Positions 41,401-58,692 of a stretch of 64,000 nucleotides of DNA are shown piece after piece. This DNA comes from Candidatus Aminicenantes bacterium UBA6228 (lineage in GTDB: Bacteria; Acidobacteriota; Aminicenantia; Aminicenantales; Saccharicenantaceae). Location of the stretch: the NCBI GenBank assembly GCA_002441005.1, contig DJWO01000002.1, positions 70,784 through 134,783 of the forward strand. The letters run 5' to 3'. The translations under genes and the position numbers were made by a program. The notes below the pieces were generated by a model that did no database searches, had not been told where the DNA came from, and worked only from the letters and a program-made list of their open reading frames with translations. How positions within the stretch are numbered: the stretch's first letter is position 1; each line of letters begins with the position of its first letter.

Positions 41401-41436
41401 AAAAAAATAGGAAATATAGATTGTGTCCCCAGTTTT
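41401..41436 (+). repeat. GTGTCCCC-box repeat (F orientation) upstream of the sensor kinase
   Basis: AAAAAAATAGGAAATATAGATTGTGTCCCCAGTTTT is almost identical to the copy at 52254. Confidence 0.85.
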
Positions 41437-46699: not shown

Positions 46700-47551
46700 A
46701 TGAAGAGGGTACCTGGATCAGCCAATTTTCGCCGCCAGGCGATGGTGGCCCTCCGGAGTGTGGCGGCAGCGACGGCACTGCTTTACCTTGCTGGCTGTGC
46801 AAGCGGGCTACGAGCCCCAGGATCACTGCCGCCTCCTCCATCCTCTGCCTCACGGCCTGGTCCCTGGGAGACAAGCTACGCTGTCTATGACCCCGCCCTT
46901 TTTGGGCCAGAGTTGCCACTCACCGGACTTGTTGAACAACACCGGCTCAAACTCAAAAACGGCAAGCTAAAAAAGGCCAGGCTTCTCATCATCAAATCAC
47001 AGCGGCGGCTCGAACTCTGGGTTGGGAAAAAGATGGTTAAGGCCTATCGTATCCAACTCGGCCAGAATCCCGCCGGGCCGAAAAAGCGGCAGGGTGATTT
47101 GCGAACTCCTGAGGGCGAATACTTTATCTGCGAGCACCGGCCATCAACCTACCATCGCGGTCTGATGATTTCCTATCCAAATGTTCAGGATGCCAGGCGC
47201 GGACTGGAAGCGGGCTTAATCAGTCAGAAACAGTTCGACGAGATTAGAGCTGCCATCAAAGAGGGGAGATGCCCCCCACAGAACACCAAGCTCGGCGGAC
47301 TGATTTTGATTCACGGCCAGCTGCCCGAGTATACGGCAGATTTTGCCCGGAGCCAGAGGGCAAAACCAGGCTCGCGTCGGCCAGGACTTGAGCCCGGGGA
47401 TGCCAATCCCGCCGAGATTCGCGAATTTCATGATTGGACCAACGGCTGCATCGCCCTGTTCAATCCGGACATTCGCGAGCTCTATGAGTTTGTCCCGGAC
47501 GGAACCCCCGTGACCATTGTGGCTAACGGTCCAGTCACCGCCCCTCATTAA
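46700..47551 (+). CDS. L,D-transpeptidase (YkuD domain) lipoprotein
   Basis: Catalytic HGQ…TNGCIAL motif and a lipoprotein signal peptide. Confidence 0.8.
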   Translation: MKRVPGSANFRRQAMVALRSVAAATALLYLAGCASGLRAPGSLPPPPSSASRPGPWETSYAVYDPALFGPELPLTGLVEQHRLKLKNGKLKKARLLIIKSQRRLELWVGKKMVKAYRIQLGQNPAGPKKRQGDLRTPEGEYFICEHRPSTYHRGLMISYPNVQDARRGLEAGLISQKQFDEIRAAIKEGRCPPQNTKLGGLILIHGQLPEYTADFARSQRAKPGSRRPGLEPGDANPAEIREFHDWTNGCIALFNPDIRELYEFVPDGTPVTIVANGPVTAPH

Positions 47552-47750
47552 AATCGGGACACCCTAGATTTTCACTATTTTCTCCCTACAAATTTGTGCT
47601 AATTCGGGACACCTTAAATAATACGGACACAATCTATATTTCCTCTTTTTACCATCACCAGCATAGATGTACTGACTTAAAAGAAGCGAGGTAACGCAAA
47701 GCCAAAACCATCTTTAAAAAAAAGTGAATATCTAGGGTGTCCCCATTTTT
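47552..47750. mobile_element. MITE-like ~200-bp element with terminal inverted GTGTCCCC-box repeats (three R-type units on the left, one F-type on the right)
   Basis: The left end CGGGACACCCTAGATTTTCAC is the inverted match of the right end GTGAATATCTAGGGTGTCCCC. The element lies immediately after the L,D-transpeptidase stop. Confidence 0.7.
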
Positions 47751-47791: not shown

Positions 47792-48412
47792 ATGAAATGG
47801 GCGCAGTTTCTCGACCTTGCTGGCAACGAGCCTATTTTCTCCTCTTCGCTTCTAAAGACAGAGGACATCAGTCCCGCCGAGGCTGGCAAGCAGCTCTCCC
47901 GTTGGGTCAAGTCTGGAAAGCTCATCCAGATTCGCCGCGGTCTTTACATGTTAGCTGAGCCATATATAAAAATCAGACCTCATCCCTTCTATGTCGCCAA
48001 CAAGCTCCAGAGAGGCTCTTATGTCAGTCTGCAGTCAGCCCTGGAATACTATGGCCTTATCCCGGAATATGTGCCGGCCGTTACGAGCGTTACTACCAGG
48101 CGCACCCAAACTTTCGCCACTCCCCTTGGCAATTACATTTTCCGCCATGTCAAAAAGGAGCTTTTCTTCGATTATGTTCAATTAGACATGGGAGGAGGGC
48201 AACTGGCTTTTGTGGCCACGCCAGAAAAGTCCCTCCTTGATCTTTTATATCTCACTCCCGGCTCTGATAATCCTTCTTATCTCCGCGAACTAAGACTTCA
48301 GAATCTCGAAAATCTGAATATTGAACGTTTCAAATCTCTGGCCAGCCAGACACGCAGCCGCAAGCTTATCCGAGCCGCAGGAATTCTTGGAGGTCTGTTA
48401 AGGAGGCTTTAA
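47792..48412 (+). CDS. abiEi: AbiEi-family type IV toxin-antitoxin antitoxin / transcriptional regulator
   Basis: 206 aa with an N-terminal wHTH and the typical C-terminal domain; paired with the downstream NTase. Confidence 0.75.
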   Translation: MKWAQFLDLAGNEPIFSSSLLKTEDISPAEAGKQLSRWVKSGKLIQIRRGLYMLAEPYIKIRPHPFYVANKLQRGSYVSLQSALEYYGLIPEYVPAVTSVTTRRTQTFATPLGNYIFRHVKKELFFDYVQLDMGGGQLAFVATPEKSLLDLLYLTPGSDNPSYLRELRLQNLENLNIERFKSLASQTRSRKLIRAAGILGGLLRRL

Positions 48413-48426
48413 AGGAAGGCCGAAAA

Positions 48427-49260
48427 ATGAAAGAGCAAATCAAACAGATCATTCAACAGGCATCGACTCCTCTTCAAGCCAGAAATCTTATGCGCGAGTA
48501 TCTTCAGGCTCGCCTTCTGGAGTTTATTCAAGAGCACGGGCTGTTCCGTACCTGGGTCTTCCAGGGGGGTACAGCCCTTAGATTTCTCTACGGCCTTCCC
48601 CGCTATTCTCAGGACCTGGATTTTTCTTTGGACCAGTCAGACGCTTCTTATGATTTAAACCAGGCTATTGCCCGGATCCGTCCGTGGTTTGAGGCTGAGG
48701 CTTATGAAGCCGATTTAATAATTAAAAACGAAAAAAATGTAAAGTCAGCCTTTGTCCGCTTCCCCTCGCTCCTTTTTGAACTCGGCCTTGCGCCGCACCG
48801 CTTTCAGGTTTTCTCGGTCAAAATCGAGCTCGACAGCCAACCTCCGGCTGGAGGTAGAACCGAGACCACCATTATCCGCCGCCCCGTCCTTTTGAACCTT
48901 CATCACTATGATCAGGCAACACTTTTCAGTGGCAAAGTGCATGCCTTACTTAGCAGAAATTATACCAAGGGGCGGGATCTATACGACTTCTTCTGGTATC
49001 TTTCCGACCCCTCCTGGCCGGCCCCGAATTTCATTTATCTTAATGAAGCTCTGAAGCAAACAGGCTGGAGCGGCCCTCAGCTTGACCAGAATAACTGGGC
49101 CGATCTTGTGGCCGAAAAGCTCGAGGCTGTTGACTGGAGGCAAGCCATTGAAGATGTCCGGCCTTTTTTAGAAAGAGCTTCCGATCTAAACCTTTTGACT
49201 AAAGGCAATGTCCTCAAGCTGCTGGGGACTCGTTCCAGGGAGGCGAGGAAACATGGCTGA
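48427..49260 (+). CDS. abiEii: AbiEii-family nucleotidyltransferase toxin (DUF1814)
   Basis: GGTALRFLYG…SQDLDF nucleotidyltransferase motif. Confidence 0.8.
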   Translation: MKEQIKQIIQQASTPLQARNLMREYLQARLLEFIQEHGLFRTWVFQGGTALRFLYGLPRYSQDLDFSLDQSDASYDLNQAIARIRPWFEAEAYEADLIIKNEKNVKSAFVRFPSLLFELGLAPHRFQVFSVKIELDSQPPAGGRTETTIIRRPVLLNLHHYDQATLFSGKVHALLSRNYTKGRDLYDFFWYLSDPSWPAPNFIYLNEALKQTGWSGPQLDQNNWADLVAEKLEAVDWRQAIEDVRPFLERASDLNLLTKGNVLKLLGTRSREARKHG

Positions 49261-49272
49261 ATCGGCTGGATA

Positions 49273-49464
49273 ATTCGGGACACCCTAGATTTTCACTATT
49301 TTCTCCATACAAATTCGGGACGCCTTAATAAAAAATATGGACACGATCTATATCTTCCGTATTTCCCCTCGGCAACAGAGATGTCCAGAGTATAGGCAAG
49401 GAAAATATAGGGAAGCAGAAAGCCTCCTTAGAAAAATAGGAAATATCTAGGGTGTCCCCATTTT
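49273..49464. mobile_element. Second MITE-like element with the same terminal inverted repeats
   Basis: The left-end 31 nt are identical to the 47552 element, and the right end is AAAATAGGAAATATCTAGGGTGTCCCCATTTT. Confidence 0.7.
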
Positions 49465-49520
49465 CCAAGCTGATTGAGTATTTAAATTGATAATGATTTC
49501 GACCGTCATCTATAATCAAA

Positions 49521-49778
49521 GTGATCATAAAAAGGCAAGAATCAAGAATAAGGGAAGGCAGGATTTTAATGGCTGATGAAATAATTTTTTTAGTTACAGA
49601 ATCATTGGAAGGTGGTTACGAAGCTAAAGCCTTAGGGTATCCCATCTTTACCCAGGCAGAAACCATAGAGGAACTTAAAGAGGCAGTTAAGGACGCCACC
49701 CGTTGCCATTTTGACCAGGCCGAAATGCCACGGATTATTAGATTCCACCAGGTCAAAGAAGAAGTCCTTTCATTATGA
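49521..49778 (+). CDS. hicB: HicB-like antitoxin
   Basis: 85-aa RNase H-like fold family (UPF0150), immediately upstream of hicA with a 4-bp overlap. Confidence 0.65.
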   Translation: MIIKRQESRIREGRILMADEIIFLVTESLEGGYEAKALGYPIFTQAETIEELKEAVKDATRCHFDQAEMPRIIRFHQVKEEVLSL

Positions 49779-50023
49779 AGCTACCCAGAGATATTCAGGG
49801 TATTGAACTGGCCAATTCACTTAGCAAATTTGGCTATAAAATTACCAGGCAAACAGAAAGCCACTTGCGTCTAACAAGAATCTCGGAGGATGTACATCAT
49901 ATTACAATCCCAAAGCATAAAACTCTGAAAATTGGGACGTTGAATAACATTCTTAATGATGTTGCCGGGCACCTGGGCAAGACAAAAGAAGAAATAGCTG
50001 AAGAACTCTGGGAAAAGAATTAG
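49775..50023 (+). CDS. hicA: HicA mRNA interferase toxin
   Basis: 82-aa YcfA/HicA-like protein with the conserved His. Confidence 0.75.
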   Translation: MKLPRDIQGIELANSLSKFGYKITRQTESHLRLTRISEDVHHITIPKHKTLKIGTLNNILNDVAGHLGKTKEEIAEELWEKN

Positions 50024-50098
50024 CTGGGAGCCACACCGTATTTATAAGGTGTATCACGTTTTTTGCTTTTCTATAGGCCAGCCGGCTGCTCTTGTCCC

Positions 50099-50133
50099 GA
50101 AAATAGGAAATATCTAGGGTGTCCCCATTTTTC
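50099..50133 (+). repeat. GTGTCCCC-box repeat (F orientation)
   Basis: CGAAAATAGGAAATATCTAGGGTGTCCCCATTTTT. Confidence 0.85.
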
Positions 50134-50153
50134 CAGTCTTCTCCCTATCTGGC

Positions 50154-50696
50154 CTACAACATTCTTTCTATTTCTTTAAGTACATTCTCAAAATGACAGA
50201 TATCATCTGCATCTCTCTGGGTTGAAACTTTTTTTCTCAGATAATCAATCCTTCTCTTTAAATCTGATAAAGATAAGCTCCTGGTCCTTATGGTTTCAAC
50301 TAACAGTTCCGGAGTCCTTTTTAATCTGTGTTCGGTTATTATTCTTCTCACTTCTCTCATAAAAGCCCTGTTATTCTCGTCTGATAATATGTAACAGTTA
50401 TGATAACGGGCATAAGCAAGCGAAGCTGCTTCCCCGATATCTAATGTTGTTGTCAGTTCAGAAAATAATTTTAGTTCTTCAATATCATTCAGAGACACCC
50501 TCCAGATTAGCCGGGCATTTATTATCTTCTGGAGGACATTTCTTTGCTTGTCCCATTTAATTTCGCTGGTAACCTCTTCAGTTATCAAAAAGACATAGCC
50601 GGATGCCTTAGGCACGACAGGCAGGACATCTAATTTGATCAAATCTATGACCGAATTCGCATCCATTACTATTGCGCCTCTTCCGCCTCCGGCCAA
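50154..50696 (-). CDS. DUF4411-like PIN-domain protein
   Basis: The probable true start is MDANSVIDL… with a PIN-like acidic-residue pattern. Transcribed immediately after the HTH-ImmA gene. Confidence 0.5.
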   Translation of the reverse strand: MAGGGRGAIVMDANSVIDLIKLDVLPVVPKASGYVFLITEEVTSEIKWDKQRNVLQKIINARLIWRVSLNDIEELKLFSELTTTLDIGEAASLAYARYHNCYILSDENNRAFMREVRRIITEHRLKRTPELLVETIRTRSLSLSDLKRRIDYLRKKVSTQRDADDICHFENVLKEIERML

Positions 50697-50713
50697 CTCT
50701 GCCTCCCACCTAT

Positions 50714-51970
50714 TTAAGTGGTGCGTCTGGCTTCAGAAATTGCACAAATGTCTTCATTTTGTAAGCCAGCCAGCTCGAGCAATTCAATCAGCTTATTCCT
50801 GCTGATGAGCCCTCCCCTTGCTGCTTCGACTGCCAGATAGAAAAGATGCTCGGTGGCGTTTTGGAAAATACCCCCTTTCTCACTATCCTTATCGGGGTCT
50901 TTCTTTCTCAGAATATCCTTAATTGCCTTACCGGCCGGGCTACTATCCTGCTCTAAAAGTAAATCCTTCTCTTTTCCACTTATAAGATTAAGGTTAAAGA
51001 GCCTCCAGATAGAAGCTTCGACGCTTACCCCAAAATATCTGGCCATTCGTACCACATGCGGATAGTTAATCGTGGATGACCTCGATTGTTTGGCCACAGC
51101 CTGCCTGGCTTCGTAGCTTACAACTTTATCTTTGACCATCAATGGCACCTGAATCCTTGACGGCATGGCCTTGCCGCACCTCTTCAAGAACTCTCTTACA
51201 GCGTTTTCTGGTATAAGAAAACAGGCAGCAAAAACATCTGCTCTTACTTCTCGAAGATCTTTCTTGCCTTCTTCCCGGGAAACTATGGCCGGCAAATCGT
51301 TCAGATCACAGAGTGCATGGCAGTATTCATGAATTACGGAATATCTCTGGCGAACAGGAGGTTCGGTACTATTAATTGCACAGACTGTAGCCTCCCCGGA
51401 GCGAAAAGTGAAACCGGAAAGCCCTGCCGGCAATTGCATCTCGAGGGTTAAAATCCCCTGGGTATCAAGCAAAGAAGCCGGATCGCCTACCGGAGCAACT
51501 CCCAGGCCGAGCCTGTTTCTTTCCTGAGCAGCAATCTCTTGTCCCTGCTCAACGGCATCCCACCTGGTGCGCATTTTTCGGTCGTATGCACAAAGAGGTC
51601 CAGAACTAAGGCGGTTAACGCCCAATTTATTTTCAAGGTCAAAGATAGCATTGATGATTTCCAGCCCTCTGTTCATGCCTTCCTGTATTTGATGGTCAGA
51701 ACAAACCTCCGGAACTGCCCTTAAAATGTAAGAGAGCCCCTCAGCCTCAAAGGCCTCTTCAAAAAAGCTGTGAATTGGACGCCCGTATAAGTGGGCTAAA
51801 GCCGCCAGCTCCAGACTTGAAACCTTTCTCTTGCCTGCTTCGATCTGGGCAATTACGGGCCGAACCAGGCCCAGGGCGCTTGCCACCTGTTCTTGAGTAA
51901 ATCGAGCTTTTTCCCTGGCTTCCTTTAGCCTTCGGGCCAGTTCTTCCTGGGTTATGGTCATTTTTGCCAC
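50714..51970 (-). CDS. HTH-XRE + ImmA/IrrE metallopeptidase fusion regulator
   Basis: N-terminal XRE HTH (FTQEQVASALGL) and a HEXXH zinc-peptidase motif (VIHEYCHAL) with a downstream Glu. Confidence 0.8.
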   Translation of the reverse strand: MAKMTITQEELARRLKEAREKARFTQEQVASALGLVRPVIAQIEAGKRKVSSLELAALAHLYGRPIHSFFEEAFEAEGLSYILRAVPEVCSDHQIQEGMNRGLEIINAIFDLENKLGVNRLSSGPLCAYDRKMRTRWDAVEQGQEIAAQERNRLGLGVAPVGDPASLLDTQGILTLEMQLPAGLSGFTFRSGEATVCAINSTEPPVRQRYSVIHEYCHALCDLNDLPAIVSREEGKKDLREVRADVFAACFLIPENAVREFLKRCGKAMPSRIQVPLMVKDKVVSYEARQAVAKQSRSSTINYPHVVRMARYFGVSVEASIWRLFNLNLISGKEKDLLLEQDSSPAGKAIKDILRKKDPDKDSEKGGIFQNATEHLFYLAVEAARGGLISRNKLIELLELAGLQNEDICAISEARRTT

Positions 51971-52253
51971 CTTAAATTAAGTAATTAAGCTAACAAGCTT
52001 CAGCCAGAGGCGATATTATCATTAATCATTAACTGAGCTCCCTTCGGATTGGGGTTCCGCCTCCTCCCTTTTAAAATATAGAAACTATTACATCATTTGT
52101 CAAGATATGGCTATTTATGTAATTAAATACTACGCCAACTAAAAGAAAGTCAGCTACATTTGGCGCGGCCTGAATCGGGCCAATTCAGCAGGAATAAGAT
52201 CCAACAAGATTAAGTTATATAATTTTTATCCGCCAGCCCCTTCGCCGCCAGAC

Positions 52254-52289
52254 AAAAAAATAGGAAATATAGAATGTGTCCCCATTTTT
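52254..52289 (+). repeat. GTGTCCCC-box repeat (F orientation)
   Basis: AAAAAAATAGGAAATATAGAATGTGTCCCCATTTTT. Confidence 0.85.
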
Positions 52290-52309
52290 GCCCTGATTTC
52301 TTGCCGATT

Positions 52310-52786
52310 TCACTTTTTAATTATGCCAAGCTCAGCTAAAAAAACCGCCAGATCTATCTCAACAAGGTTTTTAGCCTCGTCTGGAGGAAAATAATCAGAA
52401 GCAAGCCCATCAAGCCATTGAGGGCTCTTTCTTGATCCAATCCTGCAAAGAGTGAGATAACGTGCGGTCTCAGAAGCATCTCGTAGCTTCCTAAATTTTT
52501 TAAAAGCTTCTTCGCTAAGGTGATTATGGATTAATTTTTCCCGCCAGGCATGAGGAGACGTATTAAATTTGCCATCTCTACCGACGGGTATGCTTGTCTC
52601 TGTATGCTTCTCTCTCTTATCATATAGCCAGCACTCAAAATAATGAATCGCAGAATAAAATGAGGCAGTGATACCCCAATCATGGTACGGAGGTTCGTTT
52701 ACTAGTTTTTTTGCTAATTTTTTATTGTGTTCAGCTTGAGAAAGATGCACATGACGATCGGCCATGTTTATCTCGCAAAAATGCAC
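52310..52786 (-). CDS. Hypothetical protein with a HEPN-like Rx4-6H motif (REKLIH); third gene of a three-gene operon
   Basis: 158 aa in an AT-rich region. The Rx4H motif was seen by eye; I recognise no other family signature. Confidence 0.45.
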   Translation of the reverse strand: MHFCEINMADRHVHLSQAEHNKKLAKKLVNEPPYHDWGITASFYSAIHYFECWLYDKREKHTETSIPVGRDGKFNTSPHAWREKLIHNHLSEEAFKKFRKLRDASETARYLTLCRIGSRKSPQWLDGLASDYFPPDEAKNLVEIDLAVFLAELGIIKK

Positions 52787-53382
52787 TGCGCCTGGGGATG
52801 AATAAAATCTGTCTTGTCTGAAATAAATACCGGAGGATAAAAGAACTCAAAAATCAAAGAAGAATATATTTTTCTTATTTCATATTCAATATCTAAAAGC
52901 TGGTCCATTAAACTACCATCATACCGATCTGAAGTAATTAGAATATAAACCTGAATTTCTTCTCTAAATTTTTGAGCGTAAATAGATTTAACTTTTCTAA
53001 TCTTGGCATAATTCGCGGCAATTCTGAGAAGGGCAGCTTGCTCTAAATCTTCCTTCTCTAATTCCATAATATATGACATTAAACCAAGAATTGCCTCCAG
53101 ATTATCATAATAACTTCTAATCTCTTTTGTCCTAGTCTTAGATAGGGGGAAAATCGATGAGGCTATAAACACGCCAGGGTCTGTATAATCGCTCCTCGCC
53201 ACGATTTTCTCAAGCAGTCTCTCGAATTCTCTAAAAACGAATTCACGAAGGCTATATCTATATTCTTTATCTCGCCAGGGTATTGCATAGCTTTTTGTTT
53301 CCCCACCCGGGCAAAGAGTATTATAACTATTCCCTGGCCAAATTAAATCTGTTCCTGTATAAACAGTTTGTGCTGTATCCAA
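52768..53382 (-). CDS. Hypothetical protein (204 aa), second gene of the operon
   Basis: Long ORF in AT-rich DNA that overlaps its neighbours in an operon-like arrangement; no recognisable motif. Confidence 0.5.
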   Translation of the reverse strand: MDTAQTVYTGTDLIWPGNSYNTLCPGGETKSYAIPWRDKEYRYSLREFVFREFERLLEKIVARSDYTDPGVFIASSIFPLSKTRTKEIRSYYDNLEAILGLMSYIMELEKEDLEQAALLRIAANYAKIRKVKSIYAQKFREEIQVYILITSDRYDGSLMDQLLDIEYEIRKIYSSLIFEFFYPPVFISDKTDFIHPQAQCIFAR

Positions 53383-53384
53383 AG

Positions 53385-54092
53385 TTACTCTCCTAATAAA
53401 CTTAAATGCGACTCTAAAGTGCTTTTCATAATCCTAACGCTCTCTTCTAAAAAGGCCTGGATTGATTCTTTTTTAAAATCATAAGTATTTTCAGCTAAAG
53501 TATTTATGTCTAAAAGAAATGAGATTAATCTATCTTCATGAGGAAGAGATATATCATGGGCAGATCTAATCCGTGTCCACTTATTTGCCTCAAAATCAGA
53601 TAATGTTTCCCTATTCAAGCAATGGATCTCCAATTCACGAGGCCTGGCTATCGGCGCTTCTTTATTGATATATTTAGACAGAAGATGCTCTGCAGAAGAG
53701 CCGCTGTCTAACTCTATAACCCAATGAGTCACAATCGCCAGTCTCGTAACCTTAGCATTTAGCTCATTTTTTAGATATTGAAACAACGATAAAAAGTTTT
53801 CAAAAAGTTCTTCGAAGGAAGAAACATTACTGAATTCATCCTTTTTATATCTTAATATAAGATCAACTCTGTTTTTTGATATAGACAAATTGTATGTCTT
53901 ATCTTTTGAGCTCATTTGAATTCTTGGGATTTCAACAGGAGCATCGTCTGGTATAGGCAAGATTACAGGTTCACCATCCAGAACATTTAGGTATTTCTCC
54001 CTTATTGTAACTCCTGCCTTTAGCACATCAAAAATAACGATCCCCGGACTAAACAGTACTAGTTGAATGCTATCTACCCTTGTATTCATCAT
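53385..54092 (-). CDS. Hypothetical protein (235 aa), first gene of the operon
   Basis: Long ORF 2 bp upstream of the next gene; no recognisable motif. Confidence 0.5.
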   Translation of the reverse strand: MMNTRVDSIQLVLFSPGIVIFDVLKAGVTIREKYLNVLDGEPVILPIPDDAPVEIPRIQMSSKDKTYNLSISKNRVDLILRYKKDEFSNVSSFEELFENFLSLFQYLKNELNAKVTRLAIVTHWVIELDSGSSAEHLLSKYINKEAPIARPRELEIHCLNRETLSDFEANKWTRIRSAHDISLPHEDRLISFLLDINTLAENTYDFKKESIQAFLEESVRIMKSTLESHLSLLGE

Positions 54093-54465
54093 AAACTCCT
54101 GTTTTTATTATCATATACTCTACTTAAAAAATCAAAAAAGCAGATCATTTAGGAACCCGCTTAATGATAAGGCTACCCTCTTCTTAAATACGCATTCTGT
54201 CAAAGCCATCACTTCCCTTTTATTTTATAAGTATAACATATTGTTCTTCATTTTTAATAATTCTATTTTAATTTTAAGATAGTGTTTCCAAGCCATAAAG
54301 TTTGTCTCGCCCTGGGCATTAAGAATAAATAGCCCCGCCCAATTCTCCCGGCTCGACCAAAATATGGTTGATTTTCCCATAGACATGAAGCTTAACTAGG
54401 CAGTCATCCCTCAAGAAAAAGAAAGGTTGGTTGTGTCGCCTCTTACCATCTGTAAAAAAATTCAT

Positions 54466-54501
54466 TTGACAAAACGTTATGTGTGGTATATTCTTACCAC
54501 A
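54466..54501 (+). promoter_or_regulatory. Sigma-70-type promoter (TTGACA, -10 TATATT/TATTCT) with an overlapping inverted repeat TGTGGTA-tattct-TACCACA (candidate XRE operator)
   Basis: Read directly; lies 20-50 nt upstream of the HTH-XRE gene ATG at 54520. Confidence 0.45.
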
Positions 54502-54519
54502 TAAAGGAGAGAAAAGGAA

Positions 54520-54879
54520 ATGGTTGCCTTTGGTGAATTTATCAGGGAGCTCAGGTTAAAGGCGGGGCTGACGCTACGTCATTTTTGTCAGCTGACCGGC
54601 TTCGACCCGAGCAACTGGAGCAAAATTGAGCGGGGGCTATTATCGCCCCCAAAAAGCAAGGCAGTGCTGATAGAAATCGCGCGTGTCCTTAACCTGACCG
54701 AAGAATCTGAAGACTACAAGACCTTATTTGATCTGGCCGCCATCGGTCAGATCCCTGTAGATTTGGTTTCCACCCCCCAGGTGATGGAAAAGCTGCCAGT
54801 TTTCTTTAGAACGATAAGAGGCGAAAAGCCGACTCGCCAGGAACTTGAAGATTTGATTAAAATTCTCGGTGAAGAATAA
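54520..54879 (+). CDS. XRE-family HTH transcriptional regulator
   Basis: HTH (LTLRHFCQLTGFDPSNWSKIERG). Confidence 0.75.
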   Translation: MVAFGEFIRELRLKAGLTLRHFCQLTGFDPSNWSKIERGLLSPPKSKAVLIEIARVLNLTEESEDYKTLFDLAAIGQIPVDLVSTPQVMEKLPVFFRTIRGEKPTRQELEDLIKILGEE

Positions 54880-55512
54880 ATGTCCGCTTCCAAAAGACCC
54901 CCGGCCACCATTACTCCGCCCTGGCTAAGCTTTGACTATATAAGACAGCAAGCAGACAACTTCAGACAACAATACGTAAAACCTCCAGACCTTGTGCCTG
55001 TCCCCATGGAGGATGTAGTCGAGCTCGATTTGAAGTTTCAAATAATCCCAATAATTGGCTTACAGGACAGAATAGACGTCGATGGTTTTTTAACTAATAA
55101 TTTAAAAGCTATCTGTGTTGATTATAATGTATATACGGATGAACGCTGGTCGTCGCGCTTGCGATTCACGCTGGCTCACGAAGTCGGTCATCTTGTCCTG
55201 CATAAAGAACAAATACAACAATGCAGATTTAGAACCCCCGAAGATTGGATCCATTTCAGAGAAGACTTCACTGAAGATGATTTAAATTGGTTCGAAGCCC
55301 AAGCTTATGAATTTGCCGGAAGACTCCTCGTCCCAAAAGAAGAACTGGAACAGCAAATAAGATCACGTAGTGATGAGATAAGAACTTTTAAGGAACGTTT
55401 TCCGGACAGTCCTGATCTTAACGAGGCTATTTCGCGGGTCATTTGCGGCCATTTCGGTGTCTCAGATCAGGTAATTTGTAGAAGGATTGCAAAAGAGAAA
55501 ATCCGCTTATGA
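54880..55512 (+). CDS. ImmA/IrrE-family metallo-endopeptidase
   Basis: HEXXH motif (AHEVGHLVLH); start abuts the stop of the HTH gene. Confidence 0.75.
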   Translation: MSASKRPPATITPPWLSFDYIRQQADNFRQQYVKPPDLVPVPMEDVVELDLKFQIIPIIGLQDRIDVDGFLTNNLKAICVDYNVYTDERWSSRLRFTLAHEVGHLVLHKEQIQQCRFRTPEDWIHFREDFTEDDLNWFEAQAYEFAGRLLVPKEELEQQIRSRSDEIRTFKERFPDSPDLNEAISRVICGHFGVSDQVICRRIAKEKIRL

Positions 55513-56073: not shown

Positions 56074-56159
56074 TTAAATTCTTGTACAAAATAGATGATA
56101 GCACTGTAGATATAGCGTTTTATGTCCAGACTTAAACCTCCCAGCATAATCCGATGATT

Positions 56160-56340
56160 TCGGCCACTGAATCCAGTCGAAATCCAATCGTGGCCGGCCG
56201 CCTTTCGGAGCGTAGCAACGCCGGGCCTAATTTTTTTATCCCAGCTGGCCAAGTTCCCGTCGAAATATCCACCTGAATTCAATTGGAATTGACGGCCGGA
56301 TTCCATTGGAATGGGTGGCCGGCTTCCCGTCGGGATACGC
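56160..56340. repeat. Iteron-like array of ~26-bp imperfect direct repeats (GGCCGGC-TTCCCGTCGRRAYAYCC)
   Basis: At least five units with variable 10-25-bp spacers; two more units lie at 56657-56706. Confidence 0.6.
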
Positions 56341-56363
56341 ATGGCTTTGTTAATCATTCCTAA

Positions 56364-56585
56364 CTGTTAATAGGCGCCTAGTATTACAATGTAGATCTGC
56401 ACACAGTTTTACGAGGCCGGCGGTAGTGGCTGGTAGGAGGGGGAGAGTCACATTTTACTTGGGCTCCGCACTGGAAGATACCAGGTGCCGAGAACCATTG
56501 AGAAGATCAGACGAAACCGATAGGCGGGCAACATTTTGAAGATTAAGGGATTCGGGCGGTTAATTTTAAATTGGTAAAGGACGGG
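56364..56585 (+). repeat. Conserved ~200-nt module (copy A) shared with 58335-58560; candidate structured ncRNA or recombination site
   Basis: A 75-nt block, TACTTGGGCTCCGCACTGGAAGATACCAGGTGCCGAGAACCATTGAG[A/G]AGATCAGACGAAACCGATAGGCGGG, is shared with a single A/G difference; the flanks are about 80% identical. Confidence 0.75.
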
Positions 56586-56735
56586 TTCCTTATCGCATCA
56601 CAGGCGAAAAAAGGAGGATATCTGGTGTGCCCCTTTTTTGGCCACCTATTCCAACTATCACCACGAAATTGGCCGCCTTCCAGTCGAAACACCCGGCCGG
56701 CTTGCATCGGAATACCGGAATACAGAAGCCACCAG

Positions 56736-56873
56736 AGAAAAAAGGAAATATAGACTGTGTCTCCCTTTTCAATCGATAAAAGGGAATAAATAGGGCCTAT
56801 TGATTTTCCTGGCTGATGCGTTTATGGCCCGTGCCCGAAAAAAATAGTGAATATCTAGGGTGTCCCGATTTTT
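56736..56873 (+). repeat. Pair of GTGTCCCC-box repeats (variant + canonical F) forming the right end of the composite element that starts near 56364
   Basis: AGAAAAAAGGAAATATAGACTGTGTCTCCCTTTTC … GAAAAAAATAGTGAATATCTAGGGTGTCCCGATTTTT. Confidence 0.8.
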
Positions 56874-56956
56874 CTGGGAGCAATGTCCCGAAAGGCGAGG
56901 GCATCAGCCCGAAGCCTATATGCTGTGTTATGCGCTGGTGCCGAGCATGTATTTCA

Positions 56957-57640
56957 TTAATGAGCATTCTTTTTACTCTCCATTAAGAACTCTTTAATGT
57001 CATTAATAAATTCATTGAGTTTCCCCTCTTTAGACAGATTATACACTCTTAGCCCAGTTCTTTGACTACTGATTAAAGATACAGGTGGCACGCTTAAACT
57101 CATACAAAGGCTATACCCCAATACGCTGGGATACCTATTTCTTATGTTATCCAAGATAGCTCTATCTTCGTCAAGCCAGTTTGTGCTTTGCCAAATCTTG
57201 CAACTTATGATTATTAGAGGATGGATCAAATTATTTTCTCGCTTACCTATAGCCAGGTCTACGGCTTTGTATTTTGGATATTTTTTAAATCCTCTATTTT
57301 CAAACATATAAAATTCTTCTGTTAAAATCTTTGCATTCCAGAATAGTTCGACTGCCTTTTCAGCTTCGCTTTCCTTGATTGCTTTTTTCAATATGTCAAA
57401 ACAAAACTCCTCAAAGGCAATTCCTCTAAAATTGTTGTAAGTGTTTTCACCCAACTTAGGTTTAATGTTGCCCTTTTCTTCCCAAGTGATCTTTAGGAAG
57501 TGTGATAACGATTTAATATCAAGTTTCTTTTTCCATTTTTTATAAAAAATGAGAAGTTCATTATATCTGCTATAGCCTTTATCTTTAAGTTCCTGCAAAT
57601 AGTCGGTAGTTTTCTTGATCCTTCCCATATTATTCACCAA
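56957..57640 (-). CDS. Hypothetical protein, possibly a PD-(D/E)xK-like nuclease
   Basis: 227 aa in AT-rich DNA. The pattern AVDLAIGKRENN…IIISCKIW resembles a D…(E)xK motif; weak support. Confidence 0.4.
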   Translation of the reverse strand: MVNNMGRIKKTTDYLQELKDKGYSRYNELLIFYKKWKKKLDIKSLSHFLKITWEEKGNIKPKLGENTYNNFRGIAFEEFCFDILKKAIKESEAEKAVELFWNAKILTEEFYMFENRGFKKYPKYKAVDLAIGKRENNLIHPLIIISCKIWQSTNWLDEDRAILDNIRNRYPSVLGYSLCMSLSVPPVSLISSQRTGLRVYNLSKEGKLNEFINDIKEFLMESKKNAH

Positions 57641-57776
57641 TAGTTAGCGTGGCATTTGCCTATAACTTAAAATAACCGAACTACTTCATTTATGCTCCCG
57701 GACCGACACATTTTGTGAAGTATTTCGTTTAGGCAAGATTCTAAGTGAAATCTCGAATTGTAACCTTTTCTTGTTA

Positions 57777-58337
57777 TCATTTCTTTCCAAAATCCAAAGA
57801 GCTTTTAATCCGTCCGATATCCTGCTGGCTGACGGGAGTACAAATTTCTGTAGTTTTCGAGTTTTTATGTCCAGGTAACTTTTGAACATACCATAAATCT
57901 GTAGTACCTTCTAAAAGATGAGTAGCAAAACTATGTCGCAAGGTGTAGACAGTAACATTTTTAGCAATACCCGCTTTTTGGCTGACAGCTTCCAGAGTCT
58001 TCTCAACTGTTCTTGCTGTTAAATGGCTATTTGGTTCTGATCCTATGAAAAGCCAGTTTTTAGGCTGATAGGCCTTCCAGTATTCTCGTAACACTCTTAG
58101 AGCAACTTCTGAAAGAACTTTATATCTTTCCTTTCGACCTTTTGCCGCCTTTATATAAATCATATTGCGTTTCGTATCAATATGTTCTGTAATTAATTTT
58201 ATCACCTCACTCACCGTTAATCCAGCAGAATATACCAGCATAAGAATTGCTTTATGCTTGATATTATTTACAGACTCAAATATGCCTATGACATCTTCAC
58301 GACTAAGAATAATGGAGAATTTTTTCTTGGTCAGCTG
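57777..58337 (-). pseudogene. 5'-truncated, catalytically degenerate tyrosine recombinase (phage-integrase family) remnant
   Basis: C-terminal catalytic-domain motifs are present (LMLVYSAGLTVSE, TLRHSFATHLL, GHKNSKTTEICTPV), but Arg-I is replaced by Thr, His-II by Tyr and the catalytic Tyr by Cys. The frame opens just after a TGA at 58338-58340 with no upstream start codon and no N-terminal core-binding domain. Confidence 0.7.
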
Positions 58338-58560
58338 TCAATAGGCGTATAGTATTGCGAGGTAGATCGGCACATAGTTTCACGAGGCCGAAGACACTGG
58401 TGGGGAGGATGGTGAGAGTCACATTTTACTTGGGCTCCGCACTGGAAGATACCAGGTGCCGAGAACCATTGAGGAGATCAGACGAAACCGATAGGCGGGG
58501 ATATTATTGCCGGAAAGGGATTCGGTTGGTTAATTTTAAAGTTGGTTAATTTTAAATTGA
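58335..58560 (+). repeat. Conserved ~200-nt module (copy B), abutting the recombinase truncation point
   Basis: See copy A; begins CTGTCAATAGGCG…. Confidence 0.75.
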
Positions 58561-58593
58561 AAAGTGGCAGGTTCTGCTATCGCTTCACGCGGA

Positions 58594-58692
58594 AACAAAT
58601 AGAATATATAGCGCCTCCCGATTTTCGGGCTGACGCCTGTATGGCCCGTGCCAGAAAAAAAATAGTGAATATATAGGGTGTCCCTATTTTTT
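58594..58692 (+). repeat. Pair of GTGTCCCC-box repeats (variant + canonical F) ending the copy-B composite element
   Basis: AAACAAATAGAATATATAGCGCCTCCCGATTTT … AGAAAAAAAATAGTGAATATATAGGGTGTCCCTATTTTTT. Confidence 0.8.

What the first reader, a model, noticed from the sequence alone, without database searches (positions are those of the whole stretch)
56364..58560. Duplicated ~200-nt conserved module, a candidate structured RNA or site-specific recombination site, with one copy exactly at the recombinase truncation point
Copies at 56364-56585 and 58335-58560 share a 75-nt block that is identical except for one A/G, and diverge in a patchy pattern elsewhere (for example GGTAGGAGGGGGAGAGTCAC versus GGGGAGGATGGTGAGAGTCAC), as expected for a conserved core with freer flanks. 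Copy B begins 1 nt after the stop that opens the truncated integrase frame. Either the element inserted into and destroyed the recombinase gene, or it is the recombinase's own att/core site. The strong conservation over 2 kb of otherwise unrelated sequence argues for function: an ncRNA such as an element-encoded guide or regulatory RNA, or protein-binding DNA.
Basis: seen in the sequence. Interest (0 to 1): 0.55.

Follow-up and report, generated by a model that had tools for sequence, protein, structure and literature searches.

The report
Mosaic repeat flanking a dead integron
The duplicated module is real, but it is a fast-changing, non-coding repeat of one Aminicenantes lineage that ends in a REP-like motif and brackets a decayed integron. 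The evidence does not support a conserved RNA or the recombinase's own site.

Summary
The duplication is confirmed. Copy A (56364-56873) and copy B (58335-58691) are direct repeats 1971 bp apart, with an 86-nt block differing at one base.

The conservation argument fails across lineages. In contigs that share the same module/integrase junction, the flanking integrase pseudogene plus attI is 94-98% identical to the window. The adjacent module is only 78-87% identical, and its "core" is no better conserved than its flanks. Copies are mosaics of one another, so the identical core reflects recent gene conversion.

There is no Rfam hit, no significant folding, no covariation and no coding signal.

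The recombinase is an integron-type integrase. It has lost about 100 N-terminal codons and its catalytic Tyr, and it evolves neutrally. Its real attI lies downstream of the gene.

- Copy B sits at the deletion endpoint.
- Copy A sits inside the split attC of the single cassette.
- Each copy ends in a ~35-nt motif ("M"). M is dispersed through Aminicenantes genomes, usually just after stop codons, and it flanks REP-associated tyrosine transposase-like genes.

Best reading: a BIME-like mosaic repeat. It is ordinary in kind and new only in lineage.

The parts
56364..56873 (+). Module copy A (510 nt). It consists of the left end CTGTTAATAGGCG, a duplicated ~25-nt unit, a variable patch, the 86-nt block, a right half with GGTTAATTTTAAA and TATCGC, an M-like motif (56605-56640), a nested ~130-nt unit ending in another M-like motif (56641-56770), and a terminal M motif (56838-56873).
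   Evidence: The right part, 56519-56878, is 99.4% identical to L015 2800-3160, which lies at a different genomic site.
58335..58691 (+). Module copy B (357 nt). It has the same architecture without the nested unit, carries a 16-nt tandem duplication of GGTTAATTTTAAA (58528-58556), and ends in a terminal M motif (58656-58691). It abuts the truncated integrase.
   Evidence: The same junction..TATTGACAG|CTGACCAAGAAAAA, occurs in L006, L011, L012 and L058.
56443..56528 (+). The 86-nt near-identical block of copy A (60 nt, one A/G difference at 56503, then 25 nt). The matching block in copy B is 58414-58499.
   Evidence: It is 97-100% identical among A, B and L003_1 but only 74-81% identical to L006 and L011.
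57777..58337 (-). Integron-type integrase pseudogene. Only the catalytic domain remains (Pfam Phage_integrase positions 13-166 of 172). About 100 N-terminal codons are missing. LLGH is replaced by LPGH, and IYTHV by ICTPV, so the catalytic Tyr is lost.
57651..57734 (-). attI-like site downstream of the integrase. It has direct repeats GCCTAAACGAAATACTTCA (57716-57734) and GCATAAATGAAGTAGTTCG (57677-57695) and the core GTTATAGGC (57651-57666). Homology among all family members ends here.
56957..57640 (-). The single gene cassette ORF (227 aa). It has no Pfam family.
   Evidence: It is conserved in L012 and L058.
56874..56933 (-). The 5' half of the cassette's attC (R''-L'' GCATAACACAGCATATAGG...), cut off by the M end of module copy A.
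   Evidence: The matching intact attC is L006 2090-2185.
56131..56149 (-). The 3' half of the same attC (L'-R' TTATGCTGGGAGGTTTAAG). It lies about 740 nt from the 5' half.
   Evidence: The 11-mer TTATGCTGGGA is identical to that of an L007 attC.
56150..56363 (.). Other short repeats between copy A and the attC 3' half. They include the unit GACTGGATTCAGTGGCCGAAATCATCGG (56151-56178, minus strand), which recurs three times in L015, and GGCCGGC-type repeats about 70 nt apart.
   Evidence: (D6)
52257..52283 (-). One example of the dispersed M (REP-like) motif. Others lie at 41404, 46626, 47555, 47718, 49276, 49433, 50100, 56841 and 58659. Homology between the window and strain L015 breaks exactly after GTGTCCCC at this copy.

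Best explanation
The module is a lineage-restricted, non-coding mosaic repeat, comparable to a bacterial interspersed mosaic element (BIME). It combines a body of about 230 nt, one or two degenerate M-like motifs, and a terminal M motif. M is the REP-like repeat of Aminicenantes genomes.

Shown: the copies are scattered at different sites in closely related strains, as full and half-length forms. They exchange sequence with one another by gene conversion or recombination. That exchange accounts for the identical 86-nt block between A and B, the patchy divergence elsewhere, and the rapid turnover between lineages.

Inferred: in this window the repeat acted as a rearrangement substrate in a small chromosomal integron. 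One copy lies at the endpoint of the deletion that removed the integrase's N-terminal domain. The other lies inside the attC of the only cassette. Together they leave a dead integron (pseudo-integrase, attI, cassette, half an attC) bracketed by direct repeats, which could in turn delete it by homologous recombination.

No RNA, protein or recombinase-site function needs to be assumed. Initial spread of M-bearing units by the REP-associated Y1 transposase is plausible but is an inference.
For: Multi-copy and movable:
- A related strain (L003/L015) has one full copy in a different context and three right-half copies. One of these is 99.4% identical to the right part of A but lies next to a ubiA gene. 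Two are cut at the same point, CGCCTATC|AGAAAAATCGGGAC.
- The left boundary, (C)TGTYAATAGGCG, is the same in three unrelated contexts.

Not under constraint:
- The module is 79.5%, 77.6% and 86.7% identical between the window and L006, L011 and L058. The abutting int'+attI is 93.8%, 96.7% and 98.2% identical.
- The core is no better conserved than the flanks across lineages.

Mosaic copies:
- L003_1 equals B in the left unit (100%) but is A-like in the next patch (91% vs 73%) and in the right half.
- The int'-adjacent copy of L058 carries the A-type patch.

No RNA or protein signal.

Integron context.

Pseudogene status of int': dN/dS is 0.5-1.5 among truncated copies and 0.08 between untruncated ones; catalytic motifs are lost; there is no N-terminal remnant.

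M is REP-like:
- 37 exact-pattern loci in about 12 MAGs, mostly Aminicenantes, Saccharicenans or Acidobacteriota; a few are labelled Eubacteriales, Bacillota, Omnitrophota or Thermoplasmatota.
- 131 sites in the fetched loci, often as convergent pairs.
- It lies 3-8 nt after a stop codon in about 17 of about 50 cases.
- It flanks Y1_Tnp genes whose only NCBIfam hit is REP-associated tyrosine transposase, in L044 and L056, with remnants in L049 and L036.
Against: - Only five or six independent module sequences exist, from one narrow lineage, so a weakly structured or fast-evolving RNA cannot be excluded.
- On the + strand, most substitutions in the central hairpin are wobble-compatible, and that strand folds better than the other (-27.5 vs -14.9 kcal/mol). 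Part of this reflects its G-richness.
- The sharp, recurrent ends (CTG..ATAGGCG on one side, M on the other) and the head-to-tail stacking of M-terminated units look more like site-specific or transposase-mediated joining than plain homologous recombination.
- No autonomous element carrying the module body was found, and no RAYT gene lies in the window.
- The module has M at one end only, so it is not a classical REPIN or MITE.
Confidence: 0.55

Rival explanations
1. The module is an active non-autonomous transposable element of the IS200/IS605 or REP-RAYT type, with asymmetric ends. M plus its conserved AAAAT flank would be one end, and ...CGCCTAT(TGA)CAG the other. A Y1 HUH transposase would mobilise it as single-stranded DNA, and it would have transposed into the integrase gene and into the folded attC.
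For: - M flanks Y1_Tnp/RAYT-like genes.
- M-terminated units stack head to tail in one orientation: 15 sites, all on one strand, in L015.
- A nested ~130-nt unit ending in an M-like motif is present in A, L006 and L003_1 but absent in B and L011.
- Strain-to-strain homology breaks fall exactly at the GGGG/CCCC end of M.
- A conserved pentanucleotide flanks that end, as at the left end of IS200/IS605 elements.
- attC sites are single-strand hairpins and so would be plausible targets.
Against: - No clean empty site and filled site were recovered.
- The attC interruption is not a simple insertion. About 740 nt of several different repeats sit there, and part of the attC centre is missing.
- The integrase N-terminus is deleted rather than displaced.
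- The int'/module junction is a single ancestral event shared by all carriers, so no independent insertions are documented.
- M folds only weakly.
- No second hairpin was found at the CTG..ATAGGCG end.
Confidence: 0.2
2. The module encodes a structured non-coding RNA on the + strand, antisense to the integron. It could be an sRNA, or an element-borne guide or scaffold RNA of the omega-RNA or bridge-RNA type, terminated at the M motif.
For: - The + strand consensus fold is -27.5 kcal/mol, against -14.9 for the minus strand.
- 16 pairs vary on one side only while staying paired, mostly A-U/G-U or G-C/G-U.
- A weak terminator-like hairpin followed by a T run lies at the M end on the + strand.
- The variable patch next to a constant block resembles a guide-plus-scaffold layout.
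Against: - No Rfam family matches at E<=10.
- Single-sequence z-scores are +0.18 and -1.32.
- The covariation term is a penalty (+1.56), and only 1 of 54 pairs is compensatory.
- All measures fall within the shuffles: 73, 250, 116 and 123 of 500.
- The sequence diverges 3-7 times faster than a neighbouring pseudogene.
- No promoter-like site lies in or before the module.
- No TnpB, IscB or IS110 gene lies nearby.
Confidence: 0.08
3. The module is a protein-binding or site-specific recombination site. It would be either an att site of the integron integrase or a site for another recombinase, with the 86-nt block as the crossover core. A and B would then be attL/attR-like hybrids flanking an integrated 2-kb element.
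For: - Direct repeats with an identical core and diverged arms bracket a recombinase gene, which is the classical attL/attR picture.
- A Logan contig has exactly the 1971-nt period.
- The short motif ATAGGCG recurs at the left end and at the internal point where the half-length copies start.
Against: - The 1971-nt contig runs from 56473 to 58443. That is exactly what a k=31 unitig between two copies of a 60-nt repeat gives, so it is not evidence of a circle.
- The integrase is dead and evolves neutrally.
- Its family's own site is the attI-like region downstream of the gene, and the module is absent from the untruncated (L007, L008, L013) and intact (L060) homologues.
- The exchange points between copies lie outside the core. 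L003_1 switches between the left unit and the variable patch.
- The module has no RYYYAAC/GTTRRRY boxes.
Confidence: 0.07

Closest known systems
BIMEs and REP / REPIN-RAYT systems (E. coli, Pseudomonas; REP-associated tyrosine transposases)
   Same: - A short (~35 nt) imperfect-palindrome motif is dispersed in extragenic DNA, typically just after stop codons, and often occurs as convergent pairs.
- Y1 HUH transposase genes are flanked by the motif.
- The module is a mosaic of this motif with other conserved segments, as BIMEs are.
   Different: - The motif is A/T-armed and folds weakly.
- The phylum, Aminicenantes, is new for such a system.
- The module body (~230 nt) is much longer than BIME linker motifs.
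- The module carries the motif at one end only.
- The RAYT-like proteins score below the NCBIfam cut-off (67 and 62 bits against 80).
MITE-flanked integrons (the 439-bp MITE-like elements bracketing class 1 integrons in Acinetobacter; recalled from general knowledge, see also review PMC3575428)
   Same: Two direct copies of a few-hundred-bp non-coding repeat bracket integron parts.
   Different: - Here the repeat has no terminal inverted repeats of its own and no target duplication.
- One copy replaces the 5' third of the integrase gene, and the other sits inside an attC.
- The integron is dead rather than mobilised.
attC-targeting elements (IS1111-attC insertion sequences, group IIC-attC introns)
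   Same: Foreign DNA is lodged inside an integron attC site.
   Different: - There is no IS110-family transposase.
- There is no group II intron signature (Rfam negative).
- The interruption lies in the central part of the attC, is made of several repeat types, and removes part of the site.
Element-encoded guide RNAs (IS200/IS605 omega-RNA, IS110 bridge RNA)
   Same: A ~200-nt non-coding segment lies next to the end of a mobile-element-like unit, with a constant block and variable patches.
   Different: There is no TnpB, IscB or IS110 gene, no conserved structure or covariation, and very fast sequence turnover.
Integron attI / attC sites
   Same: The module lies next to an integron-type integrase gene.
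   Different: - The true attI-like site is on the other side of the gene (57651-57734).
- The module lacks R and L boxes.
- The module is absent from the untruncated and intact family members.

Membership tests
Known structured RNA family (Rfam 15) | A match to a covariance model at or near the gathering score. | tested here: not met
   The whole window gave nothing at gathering thresholds. Both copies searched at E<=10 gave only four chance hits to eukaryotic families outside the module body.
Novel structured RNA | Thermodynamic stability above shuffles, and compensatory covariation across diverged copies. | tested here: not met
   z-scores are +0.18 and -1.32 on the + strand and +1.15 and -0.82 on the - strand. 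One of 54 pairs is compensatory, and no measure is above the shuffles. Power is limited, with only 5 sequences.
Integron recombination site (attI/attC) | RYYYAAC / GTTRRRY boxes with paired L boxes (attC), or a position beside the integrase with integrase-binding repeats (attI). | tested here: not met
   Canonical attC sites and an attI-like site were identified elsewhere. The module has neither kind of box and is absent from the untruncated (L007, L008, L013) and intact (L060) homologues.
att site of an integrated element (attL/attR) | The crossover is confined to the identical core, and an excised circle or empty site exists. | tested here: not met
   Exchange points between copies lie outside the core. 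The 1971-nt contig is a de Bruijn unitig artefact. Empty sites could not be searched for exhaustively.
MITE | Terminal inverted repeats at both ends, plus a target-site duplication. | tested here: not met
   M is present only at the right end. The left end is CTGTYAATAGGCG, and no duplication is seen at the three junctions. By contrast, M itself does form convergent pairs elsewhere.
REP / RAYT system (applies to the M motif) | A short extragenic imperfect palindrome in many copies, preferentially at the 3' ends of genes. | tested here: met
   There are 37 exact-pattern loci in about 12 MAGs and 131 sites in about 0.35 Mb of fetched loci. An upstream same-strand ORF ends before M in about 31 cases, against 14 in the opposite arrangement, and often within 3-8 nt of the stop codon. 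An 11-bp hairpin is predicted for the type-2 motif.
REP / RAYT system (applies to the M motif) | A Y1 (HUH) transposase gene flanked by the repeats. | tested here: met
   L044: Y1_Tnp flanked by M on both sides. L056: a 62%-identical homologue flanked by an M variant in inverted orientation. Remnants occur between M pairs in L049 and L036. Pfam Y1_Tnp gives E = 6e-12. NCBIfam REP_Tyr_transpos gives 67 and 62 bits, below the cut-off of 80.
BIME-like mosaic element (applies to the module) | A combination of REP with other conserved motifs, repeated at several loci in variable arrangements. | tested here: met
   Full-length, half-length and nested-unit variants occur, all ending in M, at five or more distinct sites across strains.
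BIME-like mosaic element (applies to the module) | Mobilisation or processing by the cognate RAYT. | not testable with these tools
   This needs biochemical assays or population data. No RAYT gene lies in the window.
Integron (applies to the surrounding locus) | An IntI with the IntI-specific I2 segment. | tested here: not met
   TIGR02249 matches in two stretches that skip profile positions ~178-234, with scores of 221-233 against a cut-off of 265. The alignment to VchIntIA (2A3V) lacks its residues ~206-240.
Integron (applies to the surrounding locus) | An attI next to the integrase, and an array of cassettes each ending in an attC. | tested here: met
   L006, L007 and L060 have arrays of 2 to 5 attC sites downstream of the gene. 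The window keeps one cassette with a split attC.

The most novel reading that the evidence does not exclude
M-terminated non-coding units, including this module, are live cargo-carrying derivatives of a REP/RAYT system. In this reading they are mobilised as single strands, insert head to tail next to existing M motifs and into folded attC sites, and thereby remodel and kill integrons in Aminicenantes. The module body could even supply an RNA used in that process.
Probability: 0.1. Interest if true: 0.6.

Novelty: new member of a known kind. Interest (0 to 1): 0.25.

Why it matters
For the finding itself, the result is a caution. An identical core with patchy flanks between two nearby copies looked like functional constraint. 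Comparison with other lineages shows it is concerted evolution of a repeat.

Biologically, the locus shows how dispersed repeats erode a chromosomal integron. The integrase is decapitated, the attC is split, and the remnant is bracketed by direct repeats.

Two by-products may deserve their own follow-up:
- A REP/RAYT-like system in Aminicenantes, whose motif hugs stop codons.
- An IntI-like integrase family that heads genuine attC cassette arrays yet lacks the I2 segment. The literature treats that segment as the innovation enabling attC recombination (PMC7790495 and PMC4792948, abstracts listed).

Tried and rejected
**Searches that found nothing**
- Rfam at gathering and at permissive thresholds.
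- blastn of the module against plasmids and phages, and three pattern scans of viral contigs.
- A genome-contig scan with a right-half pattern that matches all four copies known at that point.
- A metagenome scan with a 20-mer from the core. It found only one sister strain (two contigs) and one chance hit, L005.
- A protein search with the spurious 130-aa ORF across the module, used as a handle for DNA homologues. It found only itself.
- nhmmer with a module profile on all 57 fetched loci. It found no additional diverged copies.

**Ideas rejected**
- Excised circle. The 1971-nt Logan contig has exactly the length expected for a k=31 unitig between two copies of a 60-nt repeat.
- Small protein. 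The + strand ORF is broken in L011, substitutions are mostly non-synonymous, and there is no Pfam hit.
- A naturally split or recoded integrase. The 'short' homologues arise from an in-frame TAG (L007) and a frameshift (L008), so they are independent pseudogenes.
- A Tn3-type 38-bp inverted repeat for M. The flank outside GGGG is conserved as part of the motif and there is no 5-bp duplication.
- A sigma-70 or sigma-54 promoter in the block (and by inspection).
- A DGR template/variable-region pair. The differences are not adenine-specific and there is no reverse transcriptase.
- A decayed RAYT gene or an IS256 end as the origin of the module body.

**Method that underperformed**
- My generic attC scan recovered only 2 of 7 known sites, so I relied on half-site searches instead.
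Full report
**1. The observation**

The two copies are real.
- The repeat finder reports 56364-56528 and 58335-58499 as a 165-nt pair at 88% identity, 1971 nt apart.
- blastn extends this to 216 nt at 84.3% (E = 1.7e-62). It adds a second colinear block, 56784-56873 vs 58602-58691.
- The alignment shows a sharp common left boundary, CTGTYAATAGGCG.
- It also shows an 86-nt block with a single A/G difference: 56443-56528 against 58414-58499.
- Copy A carries a ~170-nt insertion relative to B.
- Both copies share a right end in a ~35-nt motif, GAAAAATAGTGAATATCTAGGGTGTCCCNATTTTT, which I call M.

So the repeated unit is 510 nt in A and 357 nt in B, not about 200 nt. The TGA that opens the truncated integrase frame lies at 58338-58340, inside the module's first six bases.

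**2. Source and relatives**

The window is part of a 142-kb JGI metagenome contig. Exact-protein look-ups and the motif scan place the organism in Acidobacteriota / Candidatus Aminicenantes.

The module is rare in public data:
- Nothing in plasmids, phages or viral contigs.
- Nothing in 185,579 species-representative genomes with a right-half pattern.
- Only one sister strain in the metagenome scan.

Further copies came through homologues of the integrase fragment: L006, L011, L012 and L058. A larger contig of the sister strain, L015, also carried copies. A profile search of all 57 fetched loci found no others.

**3. The recombinase is a dead integron integrase**

The frame 57777-58337 (minus strand) holds only the catalytic domain (Pfam positions 13-166 of 172).

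Full-length relatives carry an N-terminal Phage_int_SAM_4 domain. They match the integron-integrase model TIGR02249 in two stretches that skip the IntI-specific insert, and they also match NF040815. An intact member, P0032, aligns best to Vibrio IntIA (2A3V) but lacks its residues ~206-240.

In every family member examined, a conserved ~120-nt region follows the gene. It has two direct repeats and a GTTAT core. Beyond it come variable cassettes that end in canonical attC sites (L006, L007, L060). This is the layout of an integron whose integrase points the same way as its cassettes (the 'inverted integrase' layout, from general knowledge).

In the window:
- The attI-like site lies at 57651-57734.
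- One cassette follows it (orf227, 56957-57640).
- The cassette's attC is split. Its 5' half is at 56874-56933 and its 3' half at 56131-56149, about 740 nt apart.

The truncated gene is a pseudogene:
- The module-linked copies read LPGH and ICTPV where untruncated relatives read LLGH and IYTHV. L006 keeps the Tyr but has other changes.
- dN/dS among the truncated copies is 0.5-1.5. Between two untruncated relatives it is 0.08.
- No trace of the N-terminal domain exists anywhere in the 64 kb.

The many 'short' homologues in the database are independent decay products: an in-frame TAG in L007 and a frameshift in L008.

**4. Where the module sits**

Copy B abuts the integrase at the same nucleotide (..TATTGACAG|CTGACCAAGAAAAA) in the window, L006, L011, L012 and L058. 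This is one ancestral event. The DNA beyond the M end differs between the window, L011 and L058.

Copy A, together with about 200 nt of other short repeats, fills the gap inside the attC.

In L058, which is 95% identical to the window, the same attC is cut at a different point by a different M copy and is followed by other genes.

In the sister strain the integron is gone. One full module lies between unrelated genes and three right-half copies lie elsewhere. One of these is 99.4% identical to the right part of A but sits next to ubiA. Two are cut at the same point, CGCCTATC|AGAAAAATCGGGAC.

**5. Is the conservation functional? No**

Between the window and L006, L011 and L058:
- The integrase pseudogene plus attI is 93.8%, 96.7% and 98.2% identical.
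- The module that touches it is 79.5%, 77.6% and 86.7% identical, not counting a 26-nt indel.

Segment by segment:
- The 86-nt 'core' is 97-99% identical among A, B and the sister-strain copy.
- It is only 74-81% identical to L006 and L011, no better than the flanks (69-84%).

The copies are mosaics. The sister-strain copy equals B in the first 43 nt and is A-like afterwards. The integrase-adjacent copy of L058 carries the A-type variable patch.

It is not purifying selection.

**6. RNA, protein and site tests**

- Rfam finds nothing, even at E<=10.
- Single-sequence folds are unremarkable, with z between -1.32 and +1.15.
- The consensus fold of five copies is -27.5 kcal/mol on the + strand and -14.9 on the minus strand. 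The covariation term is a penalty and only one of 54 pairs is compensatory.
- On the named structure, none of the measures exceeds the shuffles.
- Many substitutions are wobble-compatible on the + strand. I record that as a weak residual hint.
- The + strand ORF is broken in L011, and no ORF across the module has a Pfam match.
- No promoter-like site lies in the module.
- The module has no attC or attI boxes and is absent from the untruncated and intact integrase loci.
- The 1971-nt Logan contig is not a circle. It spans 56473-58443, exactly what a k=31 unitig between two copies of a 60-nt repeat gives.

**7. The M motif**

A degenerate 27-nt pattern for M hits 37 loci in about a dozen MAGs. 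Most are Aminicenantes, Saccharicenans or Acidobacteriota; a few carry other labels. With up to five mismatches there are 131 sites in the fetched loci, often as convergent pairs 70-290 nt apart.

In the orientation GGGGACAC...CTATTTT, the motif follows an upstream same-strand ORF in about 31 cases, against 14 in the opposite arrangement. In about 17 cases it lies 3-8 nt after the stop codon. In that orientation the commoner variant folds into an 11-bp hairpin.

Homology between strains breaks exactly at the GGGG/CCCC end of M.

M is linked to Y1 transposase genes:
- In L044 a Y1_Tnp gene is flanked on both sides by M.
- In L056 a 62%-identical homologue is flanked by an M variant in inverted orientation.
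- Remnants of such genes lie between M pairs in L049 and L036.
- The only NCBIfam match of these proteins is REP-associated tyrosine transposase, below the curated cut-off.

M is therefore best described as the REP-like element of this lineage. The module body shows no similarity to the transposase or to an IS256-family end found nearby in related loci.

**8. Interpretation**

The module is a BIME-like mosaic repeat. It has a ~230-nt non-coding body, degenerate M-like motifs and a terminal M. Full, half-length and nested variants exist.

Shown:
- It is multi-copy and occupies different sites in close relatives.
- Its copies exchange sequence.
- It evolves faster than neutral neighbouring DNA.
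- It brackets the remains of an integron.

Inferred:
- It served as the substrate or endpoint of the deletion that removed the integrase N-terminus.
- It took part in the disruption of the attC.
- The two direct copies could delete the remnant.
- M-bearing units were originally spread by the RAYT-like transposase.

The sharp recurrent ends and the head-to-tail stacking keep an active, Y1-mobilised element as the main rival (0.2). A structured RNA (0.08) and a recombinase site (0.07) are poorly supported.

**9. Verdict**

In kind this is ordinary: a dispersed mosaic repeat with a REP-like end, new only for its lineage. Interest is 0.25.

The side observations (an IntI-like family that lacks the I2 segment yet heads attC arrays, and a stop-codon-hugging REP/RAYT system in Aminicenantes) are listed separately.

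Noticed in passing
window 57651-58337 (-); L007 235-5200; L006 529-4000; L060 7001-11120: The integrase family is closest to integron integrases. Its best PDB hit is VchIntIA (2A3V), and it matches TIGR02249, but it lacks the IntI-specific I2 segment (2A3V residues ~206-240). Even so, intact and decayed members head arrays of 2-5 cassettes with canonical attC sites. The attI-like site (two direct repeats plus GTTAT) lies downstream of the gene, in the same orientation. Detection that requires an IntI-specific C-terminal signature would probably miss the integrase and see only attC clusters without one.
   Followed up: partly
window 41404, 46626, 47555, 47718, 49276, 49433, 50100, 52257, 56841, 58659; loci L021-L057: A ~35-nt motif, AAAAATGGGGACAC(AATCTATATTTCC / CCTAGATATTCAC)TATTTTT, is dispersed in Aminicenantes genomes. 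It often lies 3-8 nt after a stop codon and often occurs as convergent pairs. It flanks Y1_Tnp / REP-associated tyrosine transposase-like genes (L044 6081-6743; L056 3321-3971, with a variant motif). It appears to be a REP/RAYT system; two literature searches on integron topics turned up nothing on this motif, and I did not search for it directly.
   Followed up: partly
window 52284-54437 vs L015 15253-17047: Between two strains that are 94-98% identical on either side, three ORFs are replaced by three unrelated ORFs. On one side the homology breaks exactly after GTGTCCCC of an M motif.
   Followed up: partly
window 56179-56363; also 56641-56735; L034 3577-3722: Short GGCCGGC...CCAGTCGAAA-type repeats lie about 70 nt apart. 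They have a 77% match in another Acidobacteriota MAG. Their nature is unexplained.
   Followed up: no
window 47551-47749 and 49270-49462: Two ~190-bp intergenic units are bounded by inverted M motifs and flank the AbiEi/AbiEii operon. They are about 73% identical to each other in reverse orientation. They resemble the M-M pairs that enclose RAYT remnants in L049.
   Followed up: partly
window 47792-55512: The variable island is rich in defence and toxin-antitoxin modules: AbiEi/AbiEii, HicA with a partner, a DUF3368 protein, and two HTH plus peptidase-M78 (ImmA/IrrE-like) pairs.
   Followed up: no
L002 (Logan SRR5323211_126, 1971 nt): The contig length equals the repeat period. This is fully explained by k=31 unitig boundaries inside the 60-nt identical run (it spans 56473-58443). 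It is not evidence for a circle.
   Followed up: yes
L007 690-700; L008 1925-1955; the hit list: Many database homologues of 150-220 aa are pseudogene fragments, from an in-frame TAG at a conserved Gln codon or from a frameshift. One hit (P0084, 194 aa) combines a GIY-YIG domain with the integrase catalytic domain.
   Followed up: partly
L058 48-762 and 6600-7682; L003 7290-7420: IS256-family (Transposase_mut) copies and end remnants lie in the same variable islands. One remnant sits immediately upstream of a right-half module copy.
   Followed up: no
window 58528-58556: Copy B carries a 16-nt tandem duplication of GGTTAATTTTAAA. Separately, A, B and the sister-strain copy carry a ~25-nt tandem duplication near the left end that L006 and L011 lack.
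   Followed up: no
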